Virus record (IMG/VR): IMGVR_UViG_3300045988_174992
DNA from: a virus
Strand: one strand, 5' to 3'
Length of the DNA stretch: 64,000 nucleotides
A program made the position numbers and the translations under genes. Below, piece after piece: positions 3,966 to 63,856 of the stretch. The notes below the pieces were generated by a model. It ran no database searches. It was not told the DNA's origin and saw only the letters and a list, made by a program, of their open reading frames with translations. Positions within the stretch are counted from its first letter, which is position 1, and every line of letters begins with the position of its first letter.

Positions 3966-4250
3966 ATGGCAAATACAACATTTCCTATTCATAAACTATT
4001 TAGAGTATATGAAACATTAGACCAGTTTGATGCAGAAGCAAATCACCCAGAAAATAAGATATGCTTCATCAAAGATAAGAGAATAATCTATGCTAATGGG
4101 GTTGAATATACCAATGAGCAGATGTATAATGATAATATAACTGATGATATCAAAGATGCTGCTAAATTCAAGACTGTTTATAATGCATTATTAGATGAAC
4201 TGAAGAACAGAAACTATATGGAGTTATCCAAAGATGGTGAAAATATTTAA
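3966..4250 (+). CDS. N-terminal-module-only fibre paralogue (probable remnant of a fourth BspA-like gene)
   Basis: 94 aa. IHKLFRVYETLDQFDAEANHPENKICFIKDKRIIYANGVEY plus linker DDIKDAAKFKTVYNALLDELKNRNYM align to residues 1-75 of the 4234 and 6251 ORFs. It stops where the repeat-bearing part should begin and overlaps the next start by 17 nt. Confidence 0.5.
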   Translation: MANTTFPIHKLFRVYETLDQFDAEANHPENKICFIKDKRIIYANGVEYTNEQMYNDNITDDIKDAAKFKTVYNALLDELKNRNYMELSKDGENI

Positions 4251-5433
4251 AAACTATGATACATTATCCCAATTCAATGATGAATCTATACACCCAGAAA
4301 ACAAGATATGTTTGATAAAAGATAAAGGTGTAATATATTCAAATGGTGTACAGTATTCACATTCTAAAATGCATATAATACAAGATATTGGAGATTCAGA
4401 TAACATAGTAGATAAGTTTAATGAATTGAGAAAAGGTTTATTAGAATCAAATCTAATGGCAGCTAGGACACCACATACTCTCATTTACTGGACAGGAGAT
4501 TCTAATACTATAGATATTAGTGGTACTACATATACAGCTGAACCAGATAAAGTAAACATAGATGGGGTAGAATACTACCAGTTAAAATTAGATAAAGATT
4601 TAAATAATAGTTTTAGTAATAATACTTTTACTAATTTAATATTTAAAGATGTTGATACAAGTAATGTTACTAATATGAATAATATGTTCGGTTATTGCAA
4701 TGCTCTTACTTCTTTGTATGTGTCTGAATTTGATACAAGTAATGTTACTAATATGGCTAATATGTTTTATTATTGCGAGGCTCTTACTTCTTTAGATGTA
4801 TCTAAATTTGATACAAGTAATGTTACTAATATGTTTAATATGTTTGGTAGATGCTGTGCTCTTACTTCTTTAGATGTATCTAAATTTGATACAAGTAAAG
4901 TTACTAATATGAGTAATATGTTCAATAATTGCAGTTCTCTTACTTCTTTGGATGTATCTAAATGGGATACAAGTAAAGTTACTGGTATGTATAGTATGTT
5001 TAATTATTGCATATCTATTACTTCTTTAGATGTATCTAAATTTGATACTAGTAAAGTTACTGATATGTCTAGTATGTTTCAACATTGCAGATTACTTACT
5101 TCTTTTGATGTGTCAAATTTTAATACAAGTAATGTTACTAATATGAATACTATGTTCTCTTCTTGCAGTGCTCTTACTTCTTTGGACGTATCTGGGTGGG
5201 ATACAAGTAATGTTATTTATATGGGTTATATGTTCAGGAATTGCTGGGCTCTTACTTCTTTGGACATATCTGGATGGGATACAAGTAATGTTACTAATAT
5301 GAATAGTATATTCTCTGGTTGCAGTTCTCTTAAAACAATAAGAATGGTAGGTTGTTCACAGACTACTATAGATAAGATAAAAGCACAACTATCTACAGAT
5401 GGTATAACTGGATGTACTATTGTAACAGAATAA
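4234..5433 (+). CDS. BspA-family / DUF285-type 26-residue-repeat protein (9 repeats), probable receptor-binding fibre
   Basis: 399 aa. Nine units of LTSLDVSKFDTSNVTNMxxMFxxCxx. N-terminal fibre module. C-terminus KTIRMVGCSQTTIDKIKAQLSTDGITGCTIVTE is shared with 5471 and 6251. Confidence 0.8.
   Translation: MVKIFKNYDTLSQFNDESIHPENKICLIKDKGVIYSNGVQYSHSKMHIIQDIGDSDNIVDKFNELRKGLLESNLMAARTPHTLIYWTGDSNTIDISGTTYTAEPDKVNIDGVEYYQLKLDKDLNNSFSNNTFTNLIFKDVDTSNVTNMNNMFGYCNALTSLYVSEFDTSNVTNMANMFYYCEALTSLDVSKFDTSNVTNMFNMFGRCCALTSLDVSKFDTSKVTNMSNMFNNCSSLTSLDVSKWDTSKVTGMYSMFNYCISITSLDVSKFDTSKVTDMSSMFQHCRLLTSFDVSNFNTSNVTNMNTMFSSCSALTSLDVSGWDTSNVIYMGYMFRNCWALTSLDISGWDTSNVTNMNSIFSGCSSLKTIRMVGCSQTTIDKIKAQLSTDGITGCTIVTE
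4627..5328 (+). repeat. Coding 78-bp (26-aa) repeat array, 9 units (approximate bounds)
   Basis: Periodicity of DTS[NK]VTxM motifs read in the translated ORF. Confidence 0.8.
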
Positions 5434-5470
5434 ATATAACAGAATAAAATTTTATATATAAAAAGAAATC

Positions 5471-6217
5471 ATGGCTAAATTATTTAGAAATTACAATACA
5501 TTGGTGGAATATGAAGCAGACACAAATAAACCTGTAAACACAGTTTGTTTCATTAAAGATGCAAAGGTCATCTATGTAGATGGCATACGATATTCATATA
5601 AGCAACTTGACTATCTACCACCTGCTATTAATGAAGCAGAAGCATTAGAATATATGGGTAAGATTATTAAGAATGCCCAGGAAGTAGGATTGATTGGTAT
5701 ACCAGTACCTAAACTAGTACCTGGTATATACTGGACAGGAGATTCTAATATTATAAGTATTAGTGGTACAGATTATACAGCTGAATCTGATAATATAACT
5801 ATAGATGGTGTAGAATACTATCAGTTAAAATTGGATAAAGATTTAGATAATGATTTTTACAACTTTAATTATAATTATTTTACTAATTTAATATTTAAAG
5901 ATGTTGATACAAGTAATGTTACTAATATGAGTAATATGTTCGAAGGTTGTTGGGATCTTACTTCTTTGGATGTTAGTAATTTTGATACAAGTAATGTTAC
6001 TGATATAGGATTTATGTTTAGTGATTGTGGTTCTCTTACTTCTTTAGATATGTCTGGATGGGATATAAGTAACGCCATCAAAATGAACAAAATGCTCACT
6101 GGTTGTAGTGCTCTTAAAACTATCAGAATGGTAGGTTGTTCACAGACTACTATAGATAAGATAAAAGCACAATTATCTACTGATGGTATAACTGGTTGCA
6201 CTATTGTAACAGAATAA
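5471..6217 (+). CDS. BspA-family / DUF285-type 26-residue-repeat protein (3 repeats)
   Basis: 248 aa. Same N-module (AKLFRNYNTLVEYE..TVCFIKDAKVIYVDGIRYS), three repeat units, identical C-terminal 33 aa. Confidence 0.8.
   Translation: MAKLFRNYNTLVEYEADTNKPVNTVCFIKDAKVIYVDGIRYSYKQLDYLPPAINEAEALEYMGKIIKNAQEVGLIGIPVPKLVPGIYWTGDSNIISISGTDYTAESDNITIDGVEYYQLKLDKDLDNDFYNFNYNYFTNLIFKDVDTSNVTNMSNMFEGCWDLTSLDVSNFDTSNVTDIGFMFSDCGSLTSLDMSGWDISNAIKMNKMLTGCSALKTIRMVGCSQTTIDKIKAQLSTDGITGCTIVTE
5879..6112 (+). repeat. Coding 78-bp repeat array, 3 units (approximate bounds)
   Basis: DTSNVTNM, DTSNVTDI and DISNAIKM units in the ORF. Confidence 0.7.
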
Positions 6218-6250
6218 ATTATAACAGAATAATTATAACAGAATAAAATC

Positions 6251-7225
6251 ATGCCGAAAATATTTAGAAACTACAATACATTATCTCAATTCAATACTGA
6301 ATCCACACATCCAGAAAACAAGATATGTTTCATTAAAGATAATGGAGTAATATATTCAAATGGTGTACAGTATTCACCTTATAAAATGGACACTATAGCT
6401 AATATAGAAGATTCAGATAACATAGTAGATAAGTTTAATGAATTGAGAAAAGGTTTATTAGAATCAAATCTAATGGAAGCTAGAACACTACATACTGTCA
6501 TATACTGGACTGGAGATTCTAATACTATAAACATTAGTGGTACTACATATACAGCTGAACTAGATAAAATAAATATAGATGGTGTAGTATACTATCAGTT
6601 AAAATTGTATAAAGATTTAGATAATAATTTTTATAAATTTAGTAATAATACTTTTGCTAATTTAATATTTAAAGATGTTGATACAAGTAAAGTAACTAAT
6701 ATGAATAATATGTTCCATTATTGCAATGCTCTTACTTCTTTGGATGTATCTAAATTTGATACTAGTAAAGTTACTAACATGTCATGGATGTTTGAATATT
6801 GCATGTCTCTTACTTCTTTAGATTTGAGTACATGGGATACTAGTAAGGTTACTAATATGAATGCTATGTTCCTTTATTGTAGTGCTCTTACTTCTTTGGA
6901 TTTGAGTGGATTTGATACTAGTAAAGTTACTGATATGAGTTTTATGTTCAGTAATTGCAGTTCTCTTACTTCTTTGGATTTGAGTGGATTTGATACTAGT
7001 AAAGTTACTGATATGAGTTTTATGTTCAGTAATTGCAGTTCTCTTACTTCTTTGGATTTGAGTGGATGGGATACAAGTAATGTTAATAATATGCGTAATA
7101 TGTTCAGTGGTTGTAGTGCTCTTAAAACAATCAGAATGGTAGGTTGTTTGCAGACTACTATAGATAAGATAAAAGCACAACTATCTAGTAATGGTATAAC
7201 TGGATGCACTATTGTAACAGAATAA
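6251..7225 (+). CDS. BspA-family / DUF285-type 26-residue-repeat protein (6 repeats)
   Basis: 324 aa. Same N-module and near-identical C-terminus (one Ser-to-Leu change and STD-to-SSN). Contains a perfect internal duplication. Confidence 0.8.
   Translation: MPKIFRNYNTLSQFNTESTHPENKICFIKDNGVIYSNGVQYSPYKMDTIANIEDSDNIVDKFNELRKGLLESNLMEARTLHTVIYWTGDSNTINISGTTYTAELDKINIDGVVYYQLKLYKDLDNNFYKFSNNTFANLIFKDVDTSKVTNMNNMFHYCNALTSLDVSKFDTSKVTNMSWMFEYCMSLTSLDLSTWDTSKVTNMNAMFLYCSALTSLDLSGFDTSKVTDMSFMFSNCSSLTSLDLSGFDTSKVTDMSFMFSNCSSLTSLDLSGWDTSNVNNMRNMFSGCSALKTIRMVGCLQTTIDKIKAQLSSNGITGCTIVTE
6885..7066 (+). repeat. Perfect 78-bp tandem duplication (2.3 copies) inside the repeat array
   Basis: 6885-6962 is identical to 6963-7040, base for base. 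A third copy matches for 26 nt (7041-7066). Encodes LTSLDLSGFDTSKVTDMSFMFSNCSS twice. Confidence 0.95.
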
Positions 7226-8892: not shown

Positions 8893-8925
8893 TTATAATA
8901 TAGAAAAAAGCCTTAATTTTTCAAA
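8893..8925 (-). promoter_or_regulatory. Promoter-family member P1
   Basis: Minus strand reads TTTGAAAAATTAAGGCTTTTTTCTATATTATAA. Sits 14 nt upstream of ATG 8879. The upstream box overlaps the 3' end of the preceding gene. Confidence 0.6.
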
Positions 8926-9152
8926 TTTTTCCTAAAATTTTTCAATTTATTTTTATTGTAATACTTTAGTATCTGATAAAATGCATACAATCCACCAACA
9001 AAACATAAGAAGATTATAATAGGGATCCAAAGTGGTGCAGTTACCCACCACCAAGACCAATCAATAACATTAGTCAACTTAAGTACAAGAAATACCAAGA
9101 ACAAGACACTTGAAAAGGATAATCCACTTGTATAATTGCTATTATTTTCCAT
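8913..9152 (-). CDS. Small membrane protein (2 predicted TM helices)
   Basis: 79 aa. Hydrophobic segments VLFLVFLVL and WSWWWVTAPLWIPIIIFLCFVGGLYAF. Basic C-terminal tail. Confidence 0.7.
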   Translation of the reverse strand: MENNSNYTSGLSFSSVLFLVFLVLKLTNVIDWSWWWVTAPLWIPIIIFLCFVGGLYAFYQILKYYNKNKLKNFRKNLKN

Positions 9153-9180: not shown

Positions 9181-9275
9181 TATTCACACAGGGACGTTAA
9201 AATTATCTTAACTGATAGAATATACTGAAATATGTTATTCCGCTCCCTGTGTGACCCAGGCACATTCCTATAGTT
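9181..9275 (-). repeat. 95-bp intergenic repeat family, copy C1
   Basis: Shares the boxes GTGCCTGGGTCACACAGGGAGCGGAA ... TTAACGTCCCTGTGTGAATA with copies at 21305, 37019 and 63498. Contains an 11-bp internal inverted repeat TCACACAGGGA/TCCCTGTGTGA. Confidence 0.85.
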
Positions 9276-9280
9276 ATTTT

Positions 9281-9739
9281 TCAAAAATGCTTAGCAAGTT
9301 CTGTATTTGAAAAGAACATCATATTGACACATTTAGCCATCCATTCAACTAAACCTTCATTACATGACTCTTCAAAATACTGACCAGATTCAAGCATGAT
9401 GTGAATACACTCATGTACAAATGTTTGCTTTATCTGTTCTGGTTTCAATGGCTTACCAGATGGAGTAGTCAATGACAAGTTGATTACCTGTTCTGATAAG
9501 TTGCTGTTACCAAAGATCCAGCAAGAAGTATCGTAATCAGAATATACTTTATCATGAAAACAAACATCAATGGTTTCACCAAACAAGTTGAACTGAAAAT
9601 CTTCATACTTCTTCTGTTTCTTCATATTTCTATTTGTATTAGTATTCTTTACATTATTGTTCTTTGAAGCTCTGCAAGGTTTGTTGAATATGATTTTCTC
9701 ATCAGGATTCAACACATCTTTTGCAAACTCAGTGTCCAT
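9281..9739 (-). CDS. Putative zinc metallopeptidase (HExxH)
   Basis: 152 aa with FVHECIHIMLE (HExxH) near the C-terminus. Family not identifiable by eye. Confidence 0.45.
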   Translation of the reverse strand: MDTEFAKDVLNPDEKIIFNKPCRASKNNNVKNTNTNRNMKKQKKYEDFQFNLFGETIDVCFHDKVYSDYDTSCWIFGNSNLSEQVINLSLTTPSGKPLKPEQIKQTFVHECIHIMLESGQYFEESCNEGLVEWMAKCVNMMFFSNTELAKHF

Positions 9740-9837: not shown

Positions 9838-10674
<837 letters not shown>

Positions 10675-15893: not shown

Positions 15894-15907
15894 GAGTTAA
15901 TTACTGA

Positions 15908-15934
15908 ATGGAGAACTTAAGTTCTCCATTTTTA
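15908..15934 (+). terminator. Intrinsic terminator
   Basis: ATGGAGAAC-TTAA-GTTCTCCAT followed by TTTTT. Confidence 0.75.
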
Positions 15935-20580: not shown

Positions 20581-20610
20581 TAATATAGAAAAGTTGAATT
20601 AAAATTCAAA
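20581..20610 (-). promoter_or_regulatory. Promoter-family member P4a
   Basis: Minus strand reads TTTGAATTTTAATTCAACTTTTCTATATTA. Confidence 0.6.
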
Positions 20611-20637: not shown

Positions 20638-20666
20638 CATATAGAACAATCTTCTAAAATTTCAAA
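20638..20666 (-). promoter_or_regulatory. Promoter-family member P4b (tandem with P4a)
   Basis: Minus strand reads TTTGAAATTTTAGAAGATTGTTCTATATG. Overlaps the stop of the NUDIX gene. Confidence 0.55.
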
Positions 20667-21225
20667 ATATTGGCAAAAAAGTTTGGCCTAAATTGAATTT
20701 TATTGTATTAAGAAGCATTCTTGTATGTTGATATTGCTCTTCTTTAATATCAAACAATGAAATGCAATTTGACTCATCATCAAACAATTCTTGGATAGAC
20801 TTCCAGATAGCCGTTGCATGGTCAAAAGCCAAATCATCTTTCCTTAGACCTACCAATGATACCCATTGTACTGTTGATGCATCATCTTTTGCTTTTATCA
20901 AACCTTCAAAATCATCATGAACTGTATCAGCATATACAATAGAAATGCATCTTTCTCGTGGATCTCTTCCTTCTTTAGTAAGAGCACAAACTTGAAACAT
21001 ATAACTCAAGCTCAAGTTTGTCTCTTCCTTAAGTTCACGAATAGCGGCACTCATAGCAGATCTGTCTTCTGGATCTAAGAATCCACCAGGAAGAGCTAGC
21101 TTTCCTTTGAATGGTTCATTCTTACGAGTGATGAGCAACACCTTTGGATTATTTGGATCCTTTAAATTGAAAATCACGTTATCTACTGTAACTGCATAAT
21201 GTACGTATTCGTATGTATAACTCAT
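20662..21225 (-). CDS. NUDIX hydrolase
   Basis: Nudix box GGFLDPEDRSAMSAAIRELKEETNL (GX5EX7REUXEEXGU). The ORF-track start at 21261 is a TTG lying inside the promoter box TTGTTCTATATT, so the ATG at 21225 (MSYTYEY) is used. Confidence 0.85.
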   Translation of the reverse strand: MSYTYEYVHYAVTVDNVIFNLKDPNNPKVLLITRKNEPFKGKLALPGGFLDPEDRSAMSAAIRELKEETNLSLSYMFQVCALTKEGRDPRERCISIVYADTVHDDFEGLIKAKDDASTVQWVSLVGLRKDDLAFDHATAIWKSIQELFDDESNCISLFDIKEEQYQHTRMLLNTIKFNLGQTFLPIF

Positions 21226-21249
21226 AATTATTATTTTTTGTTCGAATAT

Positions 21250-21278
21250 AATATAGAACAATTTTTAAAAATTTCAAA
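21250..21278 (-). promoter_or_regulatory. Promoter-family member P5
   Basis: Minus strand reads TTTGAAATTTTTAAAAATTGTTCTATATT. Sits 25 nt upstream of ATG 21225. Confidence 0.7.
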
Positions 21279-21304: not shown

Positions 21305-21399
21305 TATTCACACAGGTAGCGTAAAATTTTCTTAGGTTATAATTTATACTCCTAAACAATTTTCCGCTCCCTGTGTGACCCAGGCGCTTTACTAGTGAA
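21305..21399 (-). repeat. 95-bp intergenic repeat family, copy C2
   Basis: AAAGCGCCTGGGTCACACAGGGAGCGGAAA ... TTTACGCTACCTGTGTGAATA. Inverted repeat of 9+4 bp with a compensated inner pair relative to C1. Confidence 0.85.
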
Positions 21400-21414: not shown

Positions 21415-21765
21415 CTATCGTATAGTCCTTTTAGTCAATCTATAAGTACCATCTTCATATTTGATTATCCTATAAAACGTCCAGTTGCTTGACTTCATCC
21501 ATCCATAAGTTGATATGTCTTTCTTTGATTCATATCCTCTCATAGGTGAATATACCCATTCTACAGGATATATTGCTAATGTATCAGCAATACATACACT
21601 ATCTATAAAATGACGATCAACTATTGTATCAAGTTCATATTGCATTGTTGTATTGTCAATTTCTTTTGGTGTACCACAAGACATGAAGAAGAATGACAAT
21701 ATAATAGCAAACATCAATATCCAAGTAATTACTGTAGCTTGCATTTGTGTGAGATTTCTTTTCAT
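21415..21765 (-). CDS. Putative lipoprotein
   Basis: 116 aa. Signal-peptide-like N-terminus WILMFAIILSFFFMSCG with a lipobox-like Cys. Confidence 0.6.
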   Translation of the reverse strand: MKRNLTQMQATVITWILMFAIILSFFFMSCGTPKEIDNTTMQYELDTIVDRHFIDSVCIADTLAIYPVEWVYSPMRGYESKKDISTYGWMKSSNWTFYRIIKYEDGTYRLTKRTIR

Positions 21766-23415: not shown

Positions 23416-23433
23416 TATTTTTTGTTCAGAGAT

Positions 23434-23462
23434 AAAATAGAACAATTATGATTTATTTCAAA
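23434..23462 (-). promoter_or_regulatory. Promoter-family member P6
   Basis: Minus strand reads TTTGAAATAAATCATAATTGTTCTATTTT. Confidence 0.6.
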
Positions 23463-33202: not shown

Positions 33203-36200
33203 TTAAAATGGACAATCCTCAAACAAATTTTTCTCTTCTACCTTCTTCATGTAAGAAGTATCTTCAGATTTGCTTAAATTCTGTCCAAAGATAGTACCTC
33301 TTAACGAATTAGTATTCTCCATCTTCTCAACAAATCTCTTATTTGTTCCATCCTTTGAAGCATAATCACTATAATCATAACCATCATGAATAACATTCTT
33401 CAATTGACTTTCAATTTGCTCTAATTTGTATTTTGAAGTGTGTGGAAGATTTTCTGGTAACTTGGATTCATATTCCTCTAATGTTTCTTCTTTCTTGTTT
33501 CCATCTTCTATCTTAATGTTTTCTATAAGTTCTTGTAAGAAGAACTGCTTAGTAATGTTGTTCTGATAAATCTCATTTATTTCTTGCTTAGTATTCCAAA
33601 GCATTTCAAATGGTCTTATTGTTATAATTCCATTCTTCAGTTTGGATTGGTCAATTATGATCTTCCATAAGTTGCATATCAAATCATAAATCTTCTCAAG
33701 ATATGCTTTATCTTCAACTACAACATCCTTTACAGAATTTGCATATTTACATGCATAGCTCTTCAACCATTCATCTATTTCTTCTCTTGTACATTTCATT
33801 GTATCATCTGCCCATTTCTGAGCATCTTTTACAAATCTCAATATAGGAAAATCAAGTCTTCGTTTTCTTCTGCTTTGTTCTATTGAAACAAACTTTCTTA
33901 TTCTGTTTAGCTTACTGAAATTTATTCTGTTCTGCTTCTTGTCAATACAATACTTATATATATCTTTGATAGTATCTATATTGTAGTTCTTGTACAATGA
34001 CAATACTATTGGAACATTTCTTTCCATTATCTCTATATCCTTAACATACAAATTATTGTCTTCTCTCATTTCTCTATATTCATCATCTTTGAATATGTTG
34101 TAGTTTCCAGAAATGAGTTCTCGATACAAATCAATATTTCCATCATTTACATGATCCAAGAAATCCAAAGTTTCAACAGTAACTTGATTGAATCTCATGT
34201 GTCTGCATGACTTAAGATAATCTTCAATGAATTCCAATCTGTCTTCTGATATCTCTTTTTCATGGTCAATCACATTTGTAACATATCCATAATACTGAAG
34301 ACCTTCAATCATCATTGGAAGCTGCTTCATATAAGTGGCGTATCTGTCTTCAAACACACTCAACTTATATGTTGTTTCATCAATAAAATACTTGCATTGA
34401 TTTTCATCATACTTTAGATATTTGTTAGTAGAAAGCAATGATTGAATTAATGGGTTGTATTTTGATTCTTCATTGTTTCTCTCTATCATATCATTACATG
34501 TCTTAATCAAATCTCTTGCCAAAAGCAAATCAGCCTGATTCAAACTCAAATCCAATGGTTGAGTATAGTAATAGTTGATAGGCATTCCAACAGAATCTTT
34601 CTTTGGAAGAAACATTTTAAGATACAGATTGTTGTTTCTAAGTCTATTTGCAAACTGTTCAATATCTTGTGGAATCCATTGTTCATTGAAATAAACAGAG
34701 AAACTGAACTTATCACAAATATCCACACCTACTGACAAATAAGTTGTACAGAATACAATATCATTATTTCCAATAGACTTATCAAAATTGATGAGATCCA
34801 TAGATTCTTCACCATAATTTGATTTCTTATAATAGAAACAGTTTATCTGTCTTCCAAACTTCATATCATCAAGATATTGCTGTACTAATCCAGTAAGCTG
34901 ATCATACCAAAGATTTCCTTTATTTGTTGGATAGAGAATCTTCTTACCATCTTTGATATCTTTTGCCATTGAATGAGCCATTTCAATCATCTGTTCTACT
35001 TTTGTTGGACACATGTTCAATTCAAAAGATTTCTCCCTGTAGTCATCCTTTTCAACTTTGATATGTTTGATACCAGGAAAGAATAGCATTTCTCCAGTAG
35101 GAGTACCAGTCATCATGATTATTTTTGCTTTACAATTAGCAAGTCTCTGAATTGTTGGGGCCATCACATCACGATAAGAAGAAGTGAATATCAGATGCGA
35201 CTCATCAAGTACTATATATTCAAATCCTGCGGTATCAAGCTCCATGACATTCAATCTTGAAAACTTATCTATTGTCATTGACATAGATTTGTTTGAAAGC
35301 AAATCTTCAAGTTGTGGTTTCTTATTTCCGTAGTAATAAAGCCAATCTGATGTTACAGATGATGTTTCTACTTTTGCTTTTATTGTTGAAGTAAATGGAA
35401 GTATCAGAAGTGTCTTAGCTTTGAATGCTTTAATCATTTCAGTCTTTCCATAACCAGCACCAGCTTCCAACAATGTGATATGATTCAAATTCTTAAGAAT
35501 ATCATCCTTCAAATCAGAAAGATACTGATCTTTATTCAAATGCAACTTTACTAAGTTGTCATCTTTATCATTAAGAACATCTGTTGGCGACTTGAATATT
35601 TTTTCATCTTCTCTATTTGTAGTTAATGACTTCTGCTCTTCTTTATAGATATTGTCATCTTCTATCTTAATGTTGAATCCATGATATTTGTTCAACTGTT
35701 TGATAGCCCAAACGGAAACTGGCTTATCATGTATGCTTGCAGTCTTAACATCACCTTTAAGCTCTTTATAATCTGTACCATCACAAATGGCAACCATATA
35801 TTGCAATGCCTTATCATATCCATATATAGAAGTAAGAGTGTTTGCAAGTTGCCAACGTTGTGCATGCTTATAATGTCGACGAATGCATTTGCTTGGATCA
35901 ACATCATTTATATCAGAAACTGCAGTTATATCTACACTTTTCTTCTGATTGTTTTCTGTATTGAACCATTCCAACTTAGCAAATATGTTCTTCAAGTCAG
36001 GATGTGATATCCAATCTATTGATTCAAGCCCTGTATCAAATGCCGTTTCAAAGTTAGCATCAAGTCGTAAGTCTATGAAATTAGTGGACAATAATGCTTT
36101 ACTATCTGATGTAATGAATATACCTTGCTGTGGTTTTGCCATCGCCATATCAAGCCAATCAAATATATCATCCTTTGTATATCCAATTTCCTTCATATAC

Positions 36201-36856
36201 TTAGTAAGAACAATATACAAGTAACTGTACTTATGCCTGAAATTACACAGATATTCAATCTTCTTGTTTTCGTCTGTATAAGATATTGGTGTTATCTTTG
36301 TCCAAACATGAAGTGATTTTCCAGATGCTGACTTAGCAACTCCTAAAAACCAATGATATTTGTTGAGGTCTTCAAAAATCTTTAGTTTAAGTTCATTTGC
36401 AATCTTCTTATTCTTAATATCAATATCTATGATCTGAATTCCATTCCACATAGAAAATGACTTTTCACCAATAGGTCGATTGTTAGATGAAACTGAAAAC
36501 ACTACTTTTCTGCTTGCTTTCTCAACATTCTTATATATAGGATCCTGAACAAGCATCCAAACATCTTTCCATGACTGTACAATACCTACTTTATCATAAA
36601 TGGAATTAGTAATCAAACACGATACCATGCCAAGTACAGAATCGAGATATCTGTCTTGCTCTTCTTTAGAACATTCTTTAAAATTAACAGAAGAATATAT
36701 TTCTTGATCTGTATCTTCTTCATTTAATGCTTCATATTCTTTAGACATACAACGAAACTGTTCATAAATATCAGTCATTGCAGTCTTCCCAGAATAGCTT
36801 TCAGCAACCTTCTTGAGGTATTGTGCTATATTTAATGGATTTGAATTGTTACTCAT
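33203..36856 (-). CDS. Primase-polymerase (AEP-like) fused to SF2 helicase
   Basis: 1217 aa. AEP-like IQIIDIDIK (DxD) and AKSASGKSLHVW (sGxxxH). Helicase motifs AGAGYGKTE (I), IVLDESHL (II) and MMTGTP (III). Confidence 0.7.
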   Translation of the reverse strand: MSNNSNPLNIAQYLKKVAESYSGKTAMTDIYEQFRCMSKEYEALNEEDTDQEIYSSVNFKECSKEEQDRYLDSVLGMVSCLITNSIYDKVGIVQSWKDVWMLVQDPIYKNVEKASRKVVFSVSSNNRPIGEKSFSMWNGIQIIDIDIKNKKIANELKLKIFEDLNKYHWFLGVAKSASGKSLHVWTKITPISYTDENKKIEYLCNFRHKYSYLYIVLTKYMKEIGYTKDDIFDWLDMAMAKPQQGIFITSDSKALLSTNFIDLRLDANFETAFDTGLESIDWISHPDLKNIFAKLEWFNTENNQKKSVDITAVSDINDVDPSKCIRRHYKHAQRWQLANTLTSIYGYDKALQYMVAICDGTDYKELKGDVKTASIHDKPVSVWAIKQLNKYHGFNIKIEDDNIYKEEQKSLTTNREDEKIFKSPTDVLNDKDDNLVKLHLNKDQYLSDLKDDILKNLNHITLLEAGAGYGKTEMIKAFKAKTLLILPFTSTIKAKVETSSVTSDWLYYYGNKKPQLEDLLSNKSMSMTIDKFSRLNVMELDTAGFEYIVLDESHLIFTSSYRDVMAPTIQRLANCKAKIIMMTGTPTGEMLFFPGIKHIKVEKDDYREKSFELNMCPTKVEQMIEMAHSMAKDIKDGKKILYPTNKGNLWYDQLTGLVQQYLDDMKFGRQINCFYYKKSNYGEESMDLINFDKSIGNNDIVFCTTYLSVGVDICDKFSFSVYFNEQWIPQDIEQFANRLRNNNLYLKMFLPKKDSVGMPINYYYTQPLDLSLNQADLLLARDLIKTCNDMIERNNEESKYNPLIQSLLSTNKYLKYDENQCKYFIDETTYKLSVFEDRYATYMKQLPMMIEGLQYYGYVTNVIDHEKEISEDRLEFIEDYLKSCRHMRFNQVTVETLDFLDHVNDGNIDLYRELISGNYNIFKDDEYREMREDNNLYVKDIEIMERNVPIVLSLYKNYNIDTIKDIYKYCIDKKQNRINFSKLNRIRKFVSIEQSRRKRRLDFPILRFVKDAQKWADDTMKCTREEIDEWLKSYACKYANSVKDVVVEDKAYLEKIYDLICNLWKIIIDQSKLKNGIITIRPFEMLWNTKQEINEIYQNNITKQFFLQELIENIKIEDGNKKEETLEEYESKLPENLPHTSKYKLEQIESQLKNVIHDGYDYSDYASKDGTNKRFVEKMENTNSLRGTIFGQNLSKSEDTSYMKKVEEKNLFEDCPF

Positions 36857-37018: not shown

Positions 37019-37114
37019 TTCTCCAGGATAGCGCCTGGGTCACGAGATTGGCGGAAGATTGGATGTAAGTATAATTTATCAGCTTAAACATTTTTAACGT
37101 CCCTGAAGTGAAAT
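37019..37114 (+). repeat. 96-bp intergenic repeat family, copy C3
   Basis: TTCTCCAGGATAGCGCCTGGGTCACGAGATTGGCGGAAG ... TTAACGTCCCTGAAGTGAAAT. Sits in the divergent region between the primase gene and 37192. Confidence 0.8.
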
Positions 37115-37174: not shown

Positions 37175-37191
37175 TTAAATGATTGAATTCA

Positions 37192-38049
37192 ATGAGTTGT
37201 GTACAAAATACAAATAATAGTTCTCCAGCACAAAAAGAAATCTCCATGGAGGAATACAATAAGAGAAAGCATAAAATAGAAGATCAAGTAGATTACCAGT
37301 TTATTCAAAGAATCATACAAGAACTGACACAAACTTGTGCTATAAATTTACCAATGCAACCATCAGCTATTCCACCATTGATTCTTCAAGCTGCTCAATA
37401 TTTCTGGGAAAATTGTGACCAGGCGATAGAAGAACGTTGGTATTGTCTCCCATTCAGAGAGTTTACAAAATGTGGTGCTAACATGATTGCTAAGTTGCCA
37501 CCGCAAATTCTTTCAGTAAACGGATTGTACAAAGCAACAGATAGTTGGTCTTATGGTGTCATGGGCGACTTTTCTTTAGAAAGAATGATACTGAACAATT
37601 CAGCTATAGCATCTGGTGTTGGTGGAAGCTTATCTGATGTGTATGGATCAGGTGGAGGATATACATTGACTGATGTTACAGCAGCATTGTATGAACTTGA
37701 TACTTTTGACTATATTTTTAATACTCCTATAACATATAATTACAATACTTACAGTAATGATCTTGTTGTGTTAGGAGCTATCGGTCATTCTGATTTGATG
37801 CTCAATGTATATAAGAGACTTAAGATACAAGATCTGTACAAGAATTACTATTTCTTCAGATATTGTGTTTGCCTTGGCTTACGTTCTATGGCTACTATCC
37901 TTGGTACATTTGAATTTAAGTTGCCTGGTGGAGTTACTTTAAATTACAGTATATGGAGAGACATGGCCAATGAAGAAATGCAGAAGATAGATGAATGGAT
38001 TCAGAAGAATCATTCTGCTGACTACTTCATAAATACTAATACTATTTAA
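37192..38049 (+). CDS. Hypothetical protein (start trimmed from TTG 37183 to ATG 37192)
   Basis: 285-aa ORF at the head of a plus-strand block of large proteins. Confidence 0.65.
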   Translation: MSCVQNTNNSSPAQKEISMEEYNKRKHKIEDQVDYQFIQRIIQELTQTCAINLPMQPSAIPPLILQAAQYFWENCDQAIEERWYCLPFREFTKCGANMIAKLPPQILSVNGLYKATDSWSYGVMGDFSLERMILNNSAIASGVGGSLSDVYGSGGGYTLTDVTAALYELDTFDYIFNTPITYNYNTYSNDLVVLGAIGHSDLMLNVYKRLKIQDLYKNYYFFRYCVCLGLRSMATILGTFEFKLPGGVTLNYSIWRDMANEEMQKIDEWIQKNHSADYFINTNTI

Positions 38050-43285: not shown

Positions 43286-44623
43286 TTACATAAAATAATT
43301 TCTATTCTCTTCAATATAATCAGGATAGACACCATCTAATGCATTCTTAAGAAAATCTTCCACTTTGGTTGCAACACCATTAATAAGACCTTCTACTATA
43401 TCATTAGGTACCATTCTGAAGAAATGGATCTCATTAGCAGGCTTGAACTTATCATCCATGAATATAACCATAGTAATACCATTAGCATAACCTGCTGCTT
43501 TTATCTTATTCATATTAATTACATTGAATGGAATAGCAGATGGTCTTGGTATAGAAACCATCGAACCATCTGTATTCATGTAATTCAACTTATTAGGATT
43601 CAACTTAACAATTTTCAACATAGAATTTTCATAATTTGGATTAGGAATTTGTTCGACCTTGTCTAGTGTACCATACTTGTTCAAGTACTTTTCAAAATCA
43701 CCATGCTTAATCTTGAATATGATACGATCACCATTCTTACGAAGCAATCCATCTGGTGTCTTCAATACAAGACCTTCTGCTACATAGCTATCATCTTCTG
43801 CTAATGGATCCTTAAAACCCTTCTTAACATAATCGATAGCTTCATCAATAGTAAACTGCCCAATACTAATTACCTTAGGAATTCCAATCTCATCAAGAAT
43901 TGCATCTCGTTCTGGAGTATTCAAATAAACTGAAGAACCATCTCTGTTAGTTACCTTAACATCAAAAGCTCTGAAACTTACACTATCCTTAAGATATCTG
44001 CATCCGGACTTACCAATCTTCTTTCCATAACCTTCACCATAGATAGTGAACATCTTAGGCAATGTACAATTCTCTTCATCAACCATATAGTCATCAACAA
44101 CGATGGCATCTGGATCATCAAATGGCTTCTGATTAAGAGTATGACAACCAAATTTCTTAATATATCCACGTTCAAGCATCCAATCAACGTTTTCCTGAAT
44201 ATTCAATCCAGTTTCAAAATCTCTTGTACACATGTAAGATTCTGGAAGTCTAAATGCTTTAAAAATCTTACCTACAAGGTCACCATTACCTTCTAGCTTC
44301 TTACCATCAGATGAAACATAAGTATTCCACATGAAGTCATCAAGAATAGGTGGAATATTAGCATTGTCTGTCTTACCCTTAATACCAATTCCACATGACA
44401 ATGATACAGTACCATGACAAAGCTTATCTGTAATCTGTGGATAAACTTCAATACGCATGTTTGTACCATCAATCTTGATAGTGGCATCAAACTTACAATT
44501 TCTCAACCATTCAAACTCTGGAAGAGTAAAATTATCATAAGGCATGATAATGTTGTTGATATCACGCTTGAAGATAGTATTAATCTTCTGATATGTATTT
44601 TCTGATCTCTTTTGCTTTCCCAT
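43286..44623 (-). CDS. ATP-dependent RNA ligase-like nucleotidyltransferase
   Basis: Motif I IKIDGTN (KxDG), EGYG (III-like), AEGLVLKTPDG (IV), IIFKIKHGDF (V). 445 aa. Confidence 0.7.
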   Translation of the reverse strand: MGKQKRSENTYQKINTIFKRDINNIIMPYDNFTLPEFEWLRNCKFDATIKIDGTNMRIEVYPQITDKLCHGTVSLSCGIGIKGKTDNANIPPILDDFMWNTYVSSDGKKLEGNGDLVGKIFKAFRLPESYMCTRDFETGLNIQENVDWMLERGYIKKFGCHTLNQKPFDDPDAIVVDDYMVDEENCTLPKMFTIYGEGYGKKIGKSGCRYLKDSVSFRAFDVKVTNRDGSSVYLNTPERDAILDEIGIPKVISIGQFTIDEAIDYVKKGFKDPLAEDDSYVAEGLVLKTPDGLLRKNGDRIIFKIKHGDFEKYLNKYGTLDKVEQIPNPNYENSMLKIVKLNPNKLNYMNTDGSMVSIPRPSAIPFNVINMNKIKAAGYANGITMVIFMDDKFKPANEIHFFRMVPNDIVEGLINGVATKVEDFLKNALDGVYPDYIEENRNYFM

Positions 44624-45210: not shown

Positions 45211-45238
45211 AATTATTATAATTTTGTTTGACATATAT

Positions 45239-45267
45239 AATATAGAAACAAATAAAGAAATTTCAAA
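45239..45267 (-). promoter_or_regulatory. Promoter-family member P11
   Basis: Minus strand reads TTTGAAATTTCTTTATTTGTTTCTATATT. Confidence 0.7.
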
Positions 45268-46940: not shown

Positions 46941-46993
46941 AAAACCTGTTCTGTATCTTAAATTTTTTACATTTAAAATATAGAACAGGTTTT
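46941..46993 (-). terminator. 12-bp perfect inverted repeat enclosing the -10-type box of P12
   Basis: AAAACCTGTTCT (46941-46952) pairs with AGAACAGGTTTT (46982-46993). 29-nt loop. Confidence 0.5.
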
Positions 46994-47005
46994 ATAAATT
47001 TCAAA
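46977..47005 (-). promoter_or_regulatory. Promoter-family member P12
   Basis: Minus strand reads TTTGAAATTTATAAAACCTGTTCTATATT. Confidence 0.7.
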
Positions 47006-57566: not shown

Positions 57567-57597
57567 AAAAATTTTAATGTTCATTATTAACATTTAT

Positions 57598-57626
57598 AAT
57601 ATAGAAAAAGGTTAAGAAATTTCAAA
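57598..57626 (-). promoter_or_regulatory. Promoter-family member P13
   Basis: Minus strand reads TTTGAAATTTCTTAACCTTTTTCTATATT. Confidence 0.7.
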
Positions 57627-58848: not shown

Positions 58849-58863
58849 AGTTTTAAAGTTTAG

Positions 58864-58928
58864 TGGACCATGTGAGATTCGAACTCACGTCCAACCGAAG
58901 TTATCGATTGTCAAATCCGTAATGGCCC
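58864..58928 (-). tRNA. Atypical tRNA-like element (65 nt, no D-arm; anticodon-loop triplet AAC)
   Basis: Minus strand: acceptor GGGCCAT/ATGGTCC (7 bp, G3:U70). Canonical T-arm GTGAG-TTCGAAT-CTCAC. Stem CAATCG/CGGTTG with the 7-nt loop ATAACTT. Only 11 nt lie between the acceptor and this stem, so no D-arm. No encoded CCA. Confidence 0.4.
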
Positions 58929-58993
58929 AAGTTATGTTTATTAATTTTAGTTCTTGAACAGAACTGAAAGTGATGTTCATTATTTATATTTTC

Positions 58994-61102: not shown

Positions 61103-63058
61103 TTATGCATCTTCAACTACAGCATCTTCTACTTTTACATCATCTGATTTTTCTTCTTTCTTATCATTGTCATGATTTGACGCATTCTCTTCCTTTGCAT
61201 TTCCTTCCTGTGTCTCTGTCTTATCAGTACCATCTTGGCTCTTTTGCTTATCGGCATAGAATTTCTCAACTATTGGGTTCCAAACTTCTTCCAACTCTTT
61301 CTTAGCTTCCATGATCTTATCATGGTCTTTGTCCTTCAATACAACAACTGATTCCAATGCATCAAGTTTTTCTTGTGCTTTAGCTCTATCCTCATCTGAT
61401 GTAGCTTTGACAAAATCTTCATTGACAATCATCTCTTTTGTATTGAACATGTAACGTTCTGCATCATTGATGTCATTAGTTTCTTTTGTCTTCTTTTCAT
61501 CAGCTTCCTTGAACTTCTCAGCATCTTCCTTGATTGCTTTGATTTCCTCATCAGTAAGTGTATTGTTACTGATTGTAATGTGCTGTTCTTTATTAGTACC
61601 AAGATCCTTAGCAGTAACAGTAACGATACCATTTGCATCAATATCAAAGCAAACTTCAATCTGTGGTACCCCAGCTTTTGCCATAGGAATTCCATCCAAT
61701 CTGAATCTACCAATAGACTTATTACCAGAAGCAATCTTACGTTCACCTTGCAATACATTTACCTCAACCATAGGTTGGTTATCAATAGATGTGGTGAATA
61801 CTTGCTTCTTCTGACATGGAATTGTTGTATTTGCTTCAACAATAGGTGCCATCATATCTCCCTTAGTTTCAATACCTAATGACAATGGAGTAACATCAAG
61901 AAGCAACAAATCACCAGTAGAATTACCAGCAAGAATATCAGCTTGCTTAGCAGCACCTAATGCAACTGCTTCATCTGGATTTACAGATTGATTCAATGGC
62001 TTATTGAATTCCTTCTTCAATGCCTCTTGCAATGATGGAATACGAGTTGTACCACCTACAAGTAAGATACAATCAATATCATCATACTTCTTACCAGCTT
62101 TCTCAACAGCAACCTTTGCTTTTTCAACTGTGCGATCATTCAAATTCTTTACAAGAGATTCAAACTTAGCACGAGAAAGTGTCATAGCAAGATTCAATGG
62201 TGCACCATCTTTCATAGAAATATATGGAAGATTAATCTCTGTCTGTGTTGAACTTGACAATTCAATCTTTGCTTTTTCTGCAGATTCTACTACACGAGCA
62301 TAAGCCATATTATCCTTTGTCAAATCAACATCATCTGACTTCTTAAATTCATCAACTACCCACTTTACAATAGCATCATCATAGTCTTTACCTCCAAGAT
62401 ATACATCACCATTTGATGCAAGTACTTCAGCCATACCATCTGACAACTCAAGGACAGAAACATCAACAGTACCAGTACCTGAATCCACTACTACAACAGT
62501 CTTGTCTTTCTTGTCTTCCATCAAGTTAGCTGCCAATGCTGCTGATGTTGGTTCATTAATCACACGAAGTACATTCAATCCAGCAAGCTCACCAGCTGTC
62601 TTAGTTGCTGTACGAGCAGCATCACCAAACCAAGCTGGTACTGTAATTACTGCATCTTTGATTTCCTCACCAACAAAATCTTCAGCAATTTTTTTCATCT
62701 TACCAACAATCATAGATGAAATCTGTTCTGGAGAATATTCCTTATCATCAATCTTAACATAAGGCTTACCAGACTTATTTACAATATCATAAGTTGCAAG
62801 CTTTTGCATCTTCTTTACATTTTCATCATTGAAATCAGCACCCATCAAACGCTTTACAAAACTGATAGTGTTCTTTGGATTTGTTACCATTGCACGCTTT
62901 GCGGCATTACCAATCTTCACTTCATCCTTTGTAATCTGTACTACAGATGGTGTTGTTCTTGTTCCTTCTTCATTTACTACTACAACTGGTTTACCTGCCT
63001 CAATTACTGCTACACACGACATACCCGTGCCTAGATCTAGGCCTAAAACTTTACTCAT
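61103..63058 (-). CDS. dnaK: DnaK/Hsp70 chaperone
   Basis: 651 aa. GLDLGTGMSCVAV, DAVITVPAWF, DSGTGTVDVSVLE, ILLVGGTTRIPSLQ and VNPDEAVALGAA, with a substrate-binding domain and an acidic tail. Confidence 0.92.
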   Translation of the reverse strand: MSKVLGLDLGTGMSCVAVIEAGKPVVVVNEEGTRTTPSVVQITKDEVKIGNAAKRAMVTNPKNTISFVKRLMGADFNDENVKKMQKLATYDIVNKSGKPYVKIDDKEYSPEQISSMIVGKMKKIAEDFVGEEIKDAVITVPAWFGDAARTATKTAGELAGLNVLRVINEPTSAALAANLMEDKKDKTVVVVDSGTGTVDVSVLELSDGMAEVLASNGDVYLGGKDYDDAIVKWVVDEFKKSDDVDLTKDNMAYARVVESAEKAKIELSSSTQTEINLPYISMKDGAPLNLAMTLSRAKFESLVKNLNDRTVEKAKVAVEKAGKKYDDIDCILLVGGTTRIPSLQEALKKEFNKPLNQSVNPDEAVALGAAKQADILAGNSTGDLLLLDVTPLSLGIETKGDMMAPIVEANTTIPCQKKQVFTTSIDNQPMVEVNVLQGERKIASGNKSIGRFRLDGIPMAKAGVPQIEVCFDIDANGIVTVTAKDLGTNKEQHITISNNTLTDEEIKAIKEDAEKFKEADEKKTKETNDINDAERYMFNTKEMIVNEDFVKATSDEDRAKAQEKLDALESVVVLKDKDHDKIMEAKKELEEVWNPIVEKFYADKQKSQDGTDKTETQEGNAKEENASNHDNDKKEEKSDDVKVEDAVVEDA

Positions 63059-63497: not shown

Positions 63498-63593
63498 TTC
63501 ACCAGGATGGCGGCTGGGATTGACAGGGAGCGGAAAAATATACTTCAGTATATTCTATCAGCCTAAGACTTTTTAGTTGTTCCTGGTGACTTT
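63498..63593 (+). repeat. 96-bp intergenic repeat family, copy C4
   Basis: TTCACCAGGATGGCGGCTGGGATTGACAGGGAGCGGAAAAATATACTTCAGTATATTCTATCAG... Overlaps the last 10 codons of 63563-63856 and is oriented against the flanking genes. Confidence 0.75.
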
Positions 63594-63856
63594 TTTGTAT
63601 TCTTATTTTTTCTTCTTGTATACATCTTCTGAAATGCATGAACTTCTTCTGGTTCTACATAATCAACTATACGATATTCATTCTTCAACTTTGCTTTTAT
63701 TCTCTTATCATTGTCTTTATAGTCTGAAATTTTCTGCTCAAGAAAAGCTTTATCTTCATTAGGACCTTCTGACAACATGCAAAACCATTTTGTCCATTCA
63801 ACACCAGTTCTTGTATGATACTGATATCTTGATTCAATGTTATATAACTTACTCAT
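63563..63856 (-). CDS. Hypothetical basic protein
   Basis: 97-aa ORF with a TAG stop. Confidence 0.6.
   Translation of the reverse strand: MSKLYNIESRYQYHTRTGVEWTKWFCMLSEGPNEDKAFLEQKISDYKDNDKRIKAKLKNEYRIVDYVEPEEVHAFQKMYTRRKNKNTKKSPGTTKKS

What the first reader, a model, noticed from the sequence alone, without database searches (positions are those of the whole stretch)
9181..9275. Four-copy 95-96 bp intergenic repeat family with GC-rich conserved boxes and alternative pairings
The copies are at 9181-9275(-), 21305-21399(-), 37019-37114(+) and 63498-63593(+). All are 95-96 bp despite about 35% internal divergence.
Conserved blocks, in common orientation, are: TTCACCAGG-like start; (A/G)GCGCCTGGGTCAC; CAGGGAGCGGAA; a central AGTATAWWTYATCAG; TTAACGTCCCTG; and GTGAAWATT at the end. 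These are the most GC-rich non-coding stretches in an AT-rich window.
The 3' segment can pair with the internal TCACACAGGGA box (11 bp in C1, 9+4 bp in C2 with a compensated inner helix). Alternatively it can pair with the 5'-terminal box (9 bp TCACCAGGA/TCCTGGTGA in C4).
The ends supply a TGAAWATT box, like the promoter upstream box, to the flanking DNA in either orientation.
This could be a cis-regulatory RNA with alternative folds, a small ncRNA gene, or a binding platform for a phage DNA-binding protein. I could not match it to any RNA family I know.
Basis: seen in the sequence. Interest (0 to 1): 0.7.

Follow-up and report, generated by a model that had tools for sequence, protein, structure and literature searches.

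The report
Repeated hairpin cassette after phage genes
A 95-base sequence that folds into a strong hairpin recurs about once every 16-27 kb between the genes of a group of giant gut phages; it most likely marks the ends of transcripts and serves as a crossover point for gene shuffling, but nobody has described it and its exact job is unproven.

Summary
The window holds exactly four copies (9181-9275-, 21305-21399-, 37019-37114+, 63498-63593+), 66-76% identical. No Rfam family, tRNA or GenBank phage matches them.

About 70 distinct copies, at roughly 16 loci per genome, occur in one clade of human-gut jumbo phages distantly related to Lak phages.

Each copy has a small GC hairpin, then a long hairpin (TCACACAGGGA / TCCCTGTGTGA) around an AT-rich centre. 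Folding energy is far below shuffles (mean z -4.8). Changes are not compensated beyond chance, and the 5' half is nearly invariant while the 3' strand drifts.

In 12 of the 14 loci with an upstream gene, the copy is in sense, starting 1-15 nt after the stop codon. Ten of 16 loci carry a T-run. All five followed by the phage's own promoter motif have one. Copies are mosaics and abut gene indels.

Best reading (about 0.4): a composite transcript-end/terminator cassette and recombination junction, like the PeSL elements of T4-type phages. Rivals are a protein-bound or trans-acting RNA, a MITE/REP-like selfish repeat, and a DNA binding site.

The parts
9181..9275 (-). Copy 1. It lies between two co-directional genes. 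It starts 5 nt after the TGA stop of ORF 9281-9739 and ends 28 nt before the ATG of ORF 8913-9152. It has no T-run and no promoter motif after it. The long-hairpin strands are at 9254-9244 and 9194-9184.
   Evidence: z -3.3; 87.1 bits
21305..21399 (-). Copy 2, with the type II centre (one continuous long hairpin). It starts about 15 nt after the stop of ORF 21415-21765.
   Evidence: -33.2 kcal/mol, z -4.8; 88 bits
21299..21304 (-). T-run (TTTTTT), 3 nt after the hairpin of copy 2.
21247..21277 (-). Phage promoter motif TTTGAAAT-N11-TTCTATATTAT, lying between copy 2 and ORF 20662-21261. Together with copy 2 it forms the hairpin / T-run / promoter cassette.
   Evidence: (families D7, D8, D10)
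37019..37114 (+). Copy 3, in the divergent region between the 1217-aa helicase gene (-) and ORF 37183-38049 (+). The internal box is changed to GAGATTG, so the long hairpin is broken. There is no T-run.
   Evidence: z 0.06; 80.6 bits
63498..63593 (+). Copy 4, the most divergent, antisense to both flanking genes. Its 3' end pairs with the 5' box (TCACCAGGA / TCCTGGTGA). The last 31 nt overlap the end of ORF 63563-63856 on the other strand. TGATATAAT lies just upstream.
   Evidence: z -3.1; 69.2 bits
63591..63596 (+). T-run (TTTTTT) directly after the closing stem of copy 4.

Best explanation
The element is a conserved intergenic cassette that is transcribed as the tail of the gene upstream of it.

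Its RNA folds into a small GC hairpin followed by a long GC-closed hairpin. Where a U-run follows, the long hairpin acts as an intrinsic terminator. This insulates the upstream unit from the next promoter. Where no U-run follows, or where the stem is broken as in copy 3, transcription reads on, and the hairpin at most protects or marks the upstream RNA end.

Because the same 95 nt recur at about 16 places per genome, the copies also recombine with one another. That makes them mosaic and places them at the edges of gene insertions and swaps.

Shown here: the anatomy, the position and orientation bias, the link between T-run and promoter, the mosaicism, and the adjacent indels.

Inferred, not shown: that the element is transcribed, that it terminates transcription, and that the recombination is homologous.
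For: 1. Strong hairpin. The region from GTCAC to GTGAC folds with mean z = -4.8, and 84% of 70 distinct copies are below -2.

2. Orientation. Of about 16 independent loci, 12 of the 14 with a gene running into the element have it in sense. My one-sided binomial is p about 0.007.

3. Position. The element starts 1-15 nt after the stop codon, in all three reading frames. The ordinary simple terminators of the same window sit in the same place: 18730-18699(-), 15906-15931(+) and 22458-22433.

4. T-run. It is present in 10 of 16 loci, and in all 5 loci where the phage promoter motif follows within about 30 nt. It is absent where the next start codon follows within about 30 nt (copy 1) or where the copy lies in a leader (copy 3). 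By hand the hypergeometric p is about 0.06.

5. A larger shared unit. In several loci the homology runs on through the T-run into the promoter (...GTGTGACTTTTTATTTAAATAAAAGTTTGAAAT...), so the repeated unit there is hairpin plus promoter.

6. Textbook stem ends. In the 'GAC-TTTTT' copies the stem gains a G-C pair and abuts the T-run directly.

7. Mosaicism.
   - All four combinations of 5' type and centre type exist.
   - At the locus of copy 2 the centre is only 68-70% identical between genomes, although their flanks are 94-97% identical.

8. Indels. Insertions of 0.48 kb and 2 kb begin at the 3' edge of the element.

9. Flanking pair. Two direct copies flank a 360-nt segment in another contig.

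10. Strand asymmetry. The sense strand folds better than the antisense in 54 of 63 copies. This is weak evidence, because the copies are related and the coding strands are G-rich.
Against: - No covariation beyond chance. Changes mostly break pairs. G-T and A-C single mismatches are about equally common, so there is no strand-specific RNA signal.
- The 5' half (GCGCCTGGGTCACACAGGGAGCGGAA) is nearly invariant, while the complementary 3' strand varies. A plain terminator does not explain this.
- Two loop motifs (AGTATA, TTTTAAC) stay conserved although they sit in different structural settings in the two centre types.
- The antisense or divergent loci (copy 4, the L005+ group, L411) still carry the T-run, although there is no upstream gene to terminate.
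- The phage has ordinary simple terminators, and most promoters in the window are not preceded by the element. The element is therefore not the general terminator.
- A 45-nt interior is unusual for an intrinsic terminator.
- There are no expression data.
Confidence: 0.4

Rival explanations
1. A structured RNA recognised by sequence. In this reading it is either the binding site of a phage or host protein (an antiterminator, processing nuclease or translational regulator), or a small RNA whose conserved 5' half pairs with a target in trans.
For: - The 26-nt 5' block is almost invariant while its pairing partner drifts. Loop motifs are conserved.
- The sense-orientation bias fits an RNA role.
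- Antisense copies keep a T-run, and copy 4 has TGATATAAT just upstream, which gives it the look of a small gene.
- No known family matches, so a new class is possible.
Against: - Only the copy-4 group reaches even the 95th-98th percentile for the phage promoter profile. All other loci look like background.
- There is no covariation.
- The centre has two different architectures, so there is no single conserved fold.
- No complementary target of 10 nt or more exists elsewhere in the window.
- No gene is consistently linked to the element.
Confidence: 0.22
2. A selfish, non-autonomous repeat of the MITE, REP/ERIC or mitochondrial GC-cluster kind. In this reading it spreads or is copied between intergenic sites, is merely tolerated there, and its hairpin comes from terminal inverted repeats.
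For: - It is multi-copy and confined to one phage clade.
- The ends are imperfect inverted repeats (TTCNCCAGGA ... TCCCTGTGTGAA).
- It occurs in both orientations.
- Copies are mosaic, with duplicated 5' boxes.
- It sits beside a second repeat family that varies in tandem copy number.
- There is no covariation.
Against: - No empty site was found. Every place where both flanks are present holds a copy. The loci were fetched around copies, so this test is biased.
- There are no target-site duplications and no linked transposase.
- All four window loci are occupied in every related contig.
- The orientation and stop-codon position biases, and the link between T-run and promoter, are not expected of a neutral passenger.
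Confidence: 0.2
3. A double-stranded or hairpin DNA site, such as a binding array for a phage DNA-binding protein, a replication or priming signal, or a site-specific recombination site. Transcription would be irrelevant.
For: - Block spacing is fixed, with almost no indels across 95 nt.
- The invariant block is not palindromic.
- Both orientations occur.
- Copy 3 lies next to the primase/helicase-like gene.
- Breakpoints of swaps fall inside or at the edge of the element.
Against: - The orientation bias relative to transcription and the T-run pattern are not expected for a DNA site.
- No recombinase or initiator is linked.
- The element is absent from all other phages, Lak phages included.
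Confidence: 0.1

Closest known systems
PeSL / PmSL cassettes of T4-type phages (composite terminator-promoter motifs; Arbiol 2010, PMC2839356; Comeau 2014, PMC4122927)
   Same: - Both are short conserved regulatory repeats between genes, made of a stem-loop joined to a phage promoter.
- Both lie at the edges of gene insertions, deletions and swaps, and serve as points of exchange between otherwise unrelated sequences.
   Different: - PeSL stem-loops are short and simple, for example A3-4G3-loop-C3T3-4. Here the unit is 95 nt, with two hairpins, a 26-nt invariant block and conserved loop motifs.
- Only about a third of the loci carry the promoter part.
- The host group and the promoter type differ.
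- There is no sequence similarity.
REP/BIME and ERIC intergenic repeats of enterobacteria, and Correia elements of Neisseria (from my own knowledge)
   Same: - Both are imperfect palindromes of 35-150 nt in transcribed intergenic regions, in either orientation.
- Both are often just 3' of genes and are combined with other small repeats.
- The known families affect mRNA stability and termination.
   Different: - Those families are chromosomal and present in tens to hundreds of copies. REPs have a dedicated transposase (RAYT), and Correia elements have a TA target duplication.
- No such features were found here.
RNase III processing hairpins between genes of phage T7 (from my own knowledge)
   Same: - Both are a family of related irregular hairpins with internal loops.
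- Both lie directly after stop codons in polycistronic phage transcripts.
- In T7 the cut hairpin stays as a protective 3' end.
   Different: - T7 sites are about 60 nt, continuous double-stranded stems.
- In the type I copies here the closing stem is only 11-13 bp around a weakly structured 45-nt interior. That is short for RNase III.
- Cleavage was not tested.
Transcription attenuators with competing hairpins (trp-type; from my own knowledge)
   Same: - The pentamers CCAGG/CCTGG and CAGGG/CCCTG recur, so several competing pairings can be written.
- The element starts within ribosome reach of the upstream stop codon.
   Different: - The alternative local hairpins fold no better than shuffled sequence (z -0.05 to -0.9).
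- There is no leader peptide.
- There is no covariation.

Membership tests
Any Rfam 15 RNA family | Covariance-model score at or above the family's gathering threshold | tested here: not met
   There were no matches in the whole window. Lenient searches of copies 1 and 2 gave only chance hits to miRNA or sRNA hairpin models, with E from 0.017 to 10.
tRNA / tmRNA | Cloverleaf or tRNA-like domain | tested here: not met
   ARAGORN finds none in the window. The elements give no tRNA-clan hit.
Intrinsic (factor-independent) terminator | GC-rich hairpin followed at once by a U-run, placed after a gene in sense | tested here: inconclusive
   Met in 10 of 16 loci, with a textbook form in the 'GAC-TTTTT' copies. 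Not met in copies 1 and 3 or in the L015 group. The 45-nt interior is atypical.
Intrinsic (factor-independent) terminator | Transcripts end there | not testable with these tools
   No transcript data are available.
PeSL-like terminator-promoter cassette | Stem-loop physically joined to a conserved phage promoter | tested here: inconclusive
   Five of 16 loci have the motif TTTGAAAT-N11-TTCTATATTAT within about 30 nt after the T-run, and the homology spans both. The other loci lack it.
PeSL-like terminator-promoter cassette | Located at indel or replacement junctions between close relatives | tested here: met
   Insertions of 0.48 kb and 2 kb begin at the element edge. The same upstream flank occurs with different downstream flanks. 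The interior is replaced at a fixed locus.
MITE / REP-type mobile repeat | Presence/absence polymorphism with target-site duplication | tested here: not met
   No empty site was found among the held loci, and no duplication was seen. The test is biased, because the loci were fetched around copies.
MITE / REP-type mobile repeat | Cognate transposase in the genome | not tested
   Only part of the genome is held. None was seen among the ORFs scanned.
Structured regulatory RNA (riboswitch or attenuator class) | Conserved secondary structure supported by compensatory changes | tested here: not met
   Paired cells are 79.2% against 79.5% in shuffles. Two pairs have double changes against 4.0 expected. 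RNAalifold finds 3 pairs in one alignment and none in the other. One subgroup (L051 type) does have a wholly different 13-bp central stem at the same place.
Small protein gene | Conserved open frame and start codon | tested here: not met
   ATG is present in only some copies and in different frames. Type II centres carry stops. The upstream stop codon lies in all three frames relative to the element.
CRISPR-repeat mimic of a host array | The same sequence repeated in a bacterial genome | tested here: not met
   A pattern scan of 185,579 species genomes gave only chance hits in GC-rich genomes, plus three contigs of one MAG that carry the phage element itself.

The most novel reading that the evidence does not exclude
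The element could be a new class of regulated terminator.

In this reading the nearly invariant 5' half is read by a phage factor. Alternatively it is occluded by the ribosome that stops 1-15 nt upstream. Either event decides whether the long hairpin and U-run form. About 16 transcription-unit boundaries of a giant phage would then be opened or closed together during infection.

The double duty of the 5' half would explain why it is invariant while its pairing partner drifts.
Probability: 0.1. Interest if true: 0.7.

Novelty: new variant of a known kind. Interest (0 to 1): 0.42.

Why it matters
Almost nothing is known about how the giant phages of gut Bacteroidota organise transcription. This family, together with the promoter motif that often follows it, gives the first candidate map of transcription-unit boundaries for one such clade.

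It also gives a concrete mechanism for their gene shuffling: crossover at a shared 95-nt cassette.

If the invariant half proves to be a protein or ribosome sensor, it would be a genome-wide switch of a new kind. If not, it is a useful but ordinary example of a regulatory repeat.

Tried and rejected
Known families
- Rfam, at gathering thresholds and at lenient ones: nothing.
- tRNA: none.
- Near and distant DNA similarity to 50,697 GenBank phages: none.

Small protein or stop-codon readthrough tag
- Rejected. The frames are inconsistent, stops occur inside, and the upstream stop lies in all three frames.

Consensus RNA structure
- RNAalifold on all copies and on type II copies gave 3 pairs and 0 pairs.
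- Explicit helices were no better than shuffles.

Alternative local hairpins in the 5' half (attenuator idea)
- z between -0.05 and -0.9, so unsupported.

Strand-specific wobble signal
- G-T and A-C mismatches are about equal.

Own promoter
- A profile built from 45 promoter matches found in the window and related loci finds nothing upstream of the elements, except a weak match at copy 4.

Trans targets
- No complementary match of 10 nt or more exists in the window.

Empty sites and target duplications
- None found.

Host CRISPR-repeat mimicry or host origin

Wider family
- The looser pattern GCGGAA-N11-AGTATA-N4-AT gave only chance hits in unrelated viruses.

Ideas from memory that no tool result supports
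- I looked for resemblance to HDV-like, hairpin, hammerhead and twister ribozymes, SRP RNA, RNase P P9, integron attC sites and type I-F CRISPR repeats. These were recalled from memory only.
- Core motifs are missing where I could check them. For example, the reverse strand has CUGAUAG rather than CUGAUGA.

Literature
- The Lak and Jug phage papers do not mention such repeats.

Full report
**1. The observation**

Reading the four stated places shows four clearly related sequences of 95-96 nt.

- The pattern GCCTGGG-N11-GCGGAA, with up to two mismatches, hits exactly these four sites. Shuffles give 0.02.
- A profile of the family, run over the whole window without filters, scores them at 69-88 bits. 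The only other match better than E = 0.5 is copy 2 read on the opposite strand (32.8 bits).
- Pairwise identity is 66-76%.
- The 5' halves of three copies are among the seven GC-richest 40-nt stretches of a window whose mean GC is 31.6%.
- Rfam at curated thresholds finds nothing in the window, and ARAGORN finds no tRNA. Lenient Rfam searches of copies 1 and 2 give only chance matches to generic hairpin models.

**2. Where the window comes from and how wide the family is**

- The window has no near DNA match among GenBank phages.
- A DnaK-like protein is 58% identical to that of Prevotella phage Lak-A1, and 45-52% identical to several 480-735 kb metagenomic phages. The source is therefore a jumbo phage, related to these only distantly.
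- Exact-pattern scans of IMG/VR found the element in eight contigs of 167-294 kb from one sample, plus one 31-kb contig.
- A scan of metagenome contigs found it in several human-gut assemblies (ERZ1026903, OWPL, OLSD, OLSB, OBAD, ERZ827168).
- A scan of 185,579 species genomes gave only chance hits in GC-rich bacteria, plus three contigs of one MAG that carry the phage element itself.
- The element has no match in GenBank phages, Lak phages included, even at blastn sensitivity.
- In all there are about 70 distinct copies, which fall into roughly 16 loci per genome.
- All four window loci are occupied in every related contig that covers them. Flanks there are 83-98% identical.

**3. Anatomy**

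In the common orientation a copy reads:

TTCNCCAGG-A(T/A)(G/A)GCG-CCTGG-G-TCACACAGGGA-G-CGGAA-[about 45 AT-rich nt containing AGTATA]-TTTTAACG-TCCCTGTGTGA

*The 5' hairpin.* CCAGG / CCTGG is intact in 43 of 70 distinct copies. Most of the other copies carry the alternative 5' end (A/G)GGTTCYCCTGTTAAGCG. There a different small hairpin, CAGGG-TTC-CCCTG, takes its place, or an extra 5' box lies further upstream.

*The long hairpin.* TCACACAGGGA / TCCCTGTGTGA plus CG/CG, with a bulged G, dominates the fold.
- From GTCAC to GTGAC the mean z-score against dinucleotide shuffles is -4.8, and 84% of copies are below -2.
- The exceptions are the groups of copy 3 and copy 4.

*The interior.* It comes in two types.
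- In type I, AGTATAT is the 3' strand of a small hairpin, and GTTAAGA / TTTTAAC forms a second one.
- In type II, AGTATAAATTATAA is the apical loop of one continuous stem.
- Taken alone, the interior is not significantly structured (mean z -1.25).
- The exception is the divergent L051 subgroup. A completely different 13-bp stem (AAAATGGTCGAGA / TCTCGACCATTTT) occupies the same place, flanked by an A-run and a T-run.

**4. Is the structure selected?**

The evidence is mixed.
- On 46 copies the two named helices are 79.2% paired, against 26-48% when the partner is slid by one to three columns. Column shuffles give 79.5%, and double changes are fewer than expected.
- RNAalifold finds practically no consensus.
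- Changes usually break pairs. There are a few clear compensations (GGTAGCGG / CCGCTACC in L021; GGT / ACC in L010) and the L051 stem.
- Single G-T and A-C mismatches are about equally common, so there is no strand-specific RNA signature.
- The sense strand folds better than the antisense in 54 of 63 copies. The copies are related and the coding strands are G-rich, so I give this little weight.
- The 5' half is almost invariant, while the complementary 3' strand takes many forms: CCGCTCCCTGTGTGC, CTACTTCCTGTGTGA, AACGTTTCCTAGTGA, ATTGTTTCAGGATTGA, AACGTCCCTGACACA. Something other than pairing constrains the 5' half.

**5. Context**

*Orientation and position.*
- I grouped copies by their flanks into about 16 loci.
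- In 12 of the 14 loci where a gene runs into the element, the element is in sense. Two loci are antisense (copy 4 and L017). Two lie in divergent regions (copy 3 and the L005+ group).
- In the sense loci the element begins 1-15 nt after the stop codon.
- The stop falls in all three frames relative to the element. This excludes a readthrough tag.
- The ordinary terminators of the same window sit equally close to stop codons.

*T-runs and promoters.*
- The phage has a clear promoter-like motif, TTTGAAAT-N11-TTCTATATTAT, upstream of many genes.
- A T-run of four or more follows the hairpin in 10 of 16 loci.
- All five loci where this promoter follows within about 30 nt have the T-run. In several of them the homology runs from the element through the T-run into the promoter.
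- Copy 1 has no T-run, and the next start codon is 28 nt away. Copy 3 has neither a T-run nor an intact stem, and it lies in a leader.
- A profile built from 45 matches to that promoter motif finds nothing above background upstream of the elements. The exception is a weak match at copy 4, at the 97.6th percentile.

**6. Evolution**

- Copies are mosaics. All combinations of 5' type and centre type exist.
- At the locus of copy 2 the centre is 68-70% identical between the window and L205/L028. The same locus in L020/L028 has flanks 94-97% identical to the window.
- The same upstream gene is found with different downstream sequence, with the junction at the 3' edge of the element.
- Insertions of 0.48 kb (one extra gene) and 2 kb start at that edge.
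- In contig 095960 two direct copies flank 360 nt.
- No empty site and no target duplication were found. The loci were fetched around copies, so this test is weak.
- A second repeat of 39 nt (AACTTTAGTTCTTGAACAGAACTGAAAGAGATGTTCATT) sits in one to six tandem copies directly after some elements, and in inverse orientation before others.

**7. Interpretation**

*Best reading.* The best-supported reading is a transcript-end cassette that also acts as a recombination junction. It works like the PeSL composite terminator-promoter motifs of T4-type phages. Their authors describe those motifs as points of exchange between unrelated sequences (PMC4122927). This reading explains:
- the position and the orientation;
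- the T-run rule;
- the shared hairpin-plus-promoter unit;
- the disabled stem in the one leader copy;
- the mosaicism and the neighbouring indels.

It does not explain:
- the invariant 5' half;
- the conserved loop motifs;
- the T-runs of the antisense copies.

I therefore put it at only 0.4.

*Rivals.*
- A sequence-recognised RNA, either a protein site or a small RNA (0.22).
- A selfish MITE/REP-like repeat (0.2).
- A DNA site (0.1).

Competing local hairpins in the 5' half are no better than chance.

**8. Novelty and score**

The family is not in Rfam or GenBank phages, and the Lak and Jug phage papers that I searched do not mention it. In kind it resembles known intergenic regulatory repeats, so I rate it a new variant of a known kind, with interest 0.42.

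The most novel reading that the evidence does not exclude is a coordinated, factor- or ribosome-sensed terminator switch. I give that a probability of about 0.1.

Noticed in passing
window 58861-58928 (-): A 68-nt gene-like sequence matches the Rfam tmRNA model end to end, but with the whole 310-nt mRNA-like and pseudoknot part missing (45.0 bits against a gathering score of 47; E = 1.6e-16 in an 801-nt search). It keeps a 7-bp acceptor stem with a G3-U pair, a perfect T-arm (GTGAG-TTCGAAT-CTCAC) and an AAC-TTCG-GTT mini-hairpin. ARAGORN and the gathering-threshold scan both missed it. It may be a mimic consisting only of the tmRNA tRNA-like domain.
   Followed up: partly
window 58934-58986; L048, L027, L042, L097 downstream of the 95-nt element: A second intergenic repeat family with a unit of about 39 nt (AACTTTAGTTCTTGAACAGAACTGAAAGAGATGTTCATT) and a small hairpin. 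In related contigs it occurs in one to six tandem copies directly 3' of the element. In other loci it lies in inverse orientation 5' of the element. The copy number differs between close relatives.
   Followed up: partly
window, e.g. 21247-21277(-), 8894-8924(-), 20581-20609(-), 23433-23461(-), 45236-45266(-), 46974-47004(-), 57595-57625(-): A recurring promoter-like motif, TTTGAAAT-N11-TTCTATATTAT, lies upstream of many genes. It resembles the Bacteroidota -33 TTTG / -7 TAnnTTTG arrangement (the comparison is from memory). In all, 45 matches were found in the window and related loci.
   Followed up: partly
window 4574-7211: Three neighbouring ORFs (4234-5433, 5471-6217, 6251-7225) consist largely of a 78-nt (26-aa) coding repeat, with 15 or more copies at 60-82% identity.
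   Followed up: no
window 10029-10172: A run of GTTCTG hexamer repeats lies inside ORF 9838-10674(-). It would encode a low-complexity peptide stretch.
   Followed up: no
window 43286-44623(-), 20662-21261(-), 61103-63058(-), 33203-36856(-): The gene content fits a jumbo phage with RNA-repair functions: an RNA ligase domain (PF09414), a NUDIX hydrolase, a DnaK-like chaperone (58% identical to that of Lak-A1) and a 1217-aa helicase with a BT4734-like N-terminal domain. The large ORFs of 1172, 1653 and 773 aa have no Pfam or PHROG match.
   Followed up: partly
window 63563-63593 (-): ORF 63563-63856(-) runs 31 nt into copy 4 and ends at a TAG inside it, so its last 10 residues (KKSPGTTKKS) are encoded by the antisense strand of the element. 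The same arrangement is seen in the orthologues.
   Followed up: no
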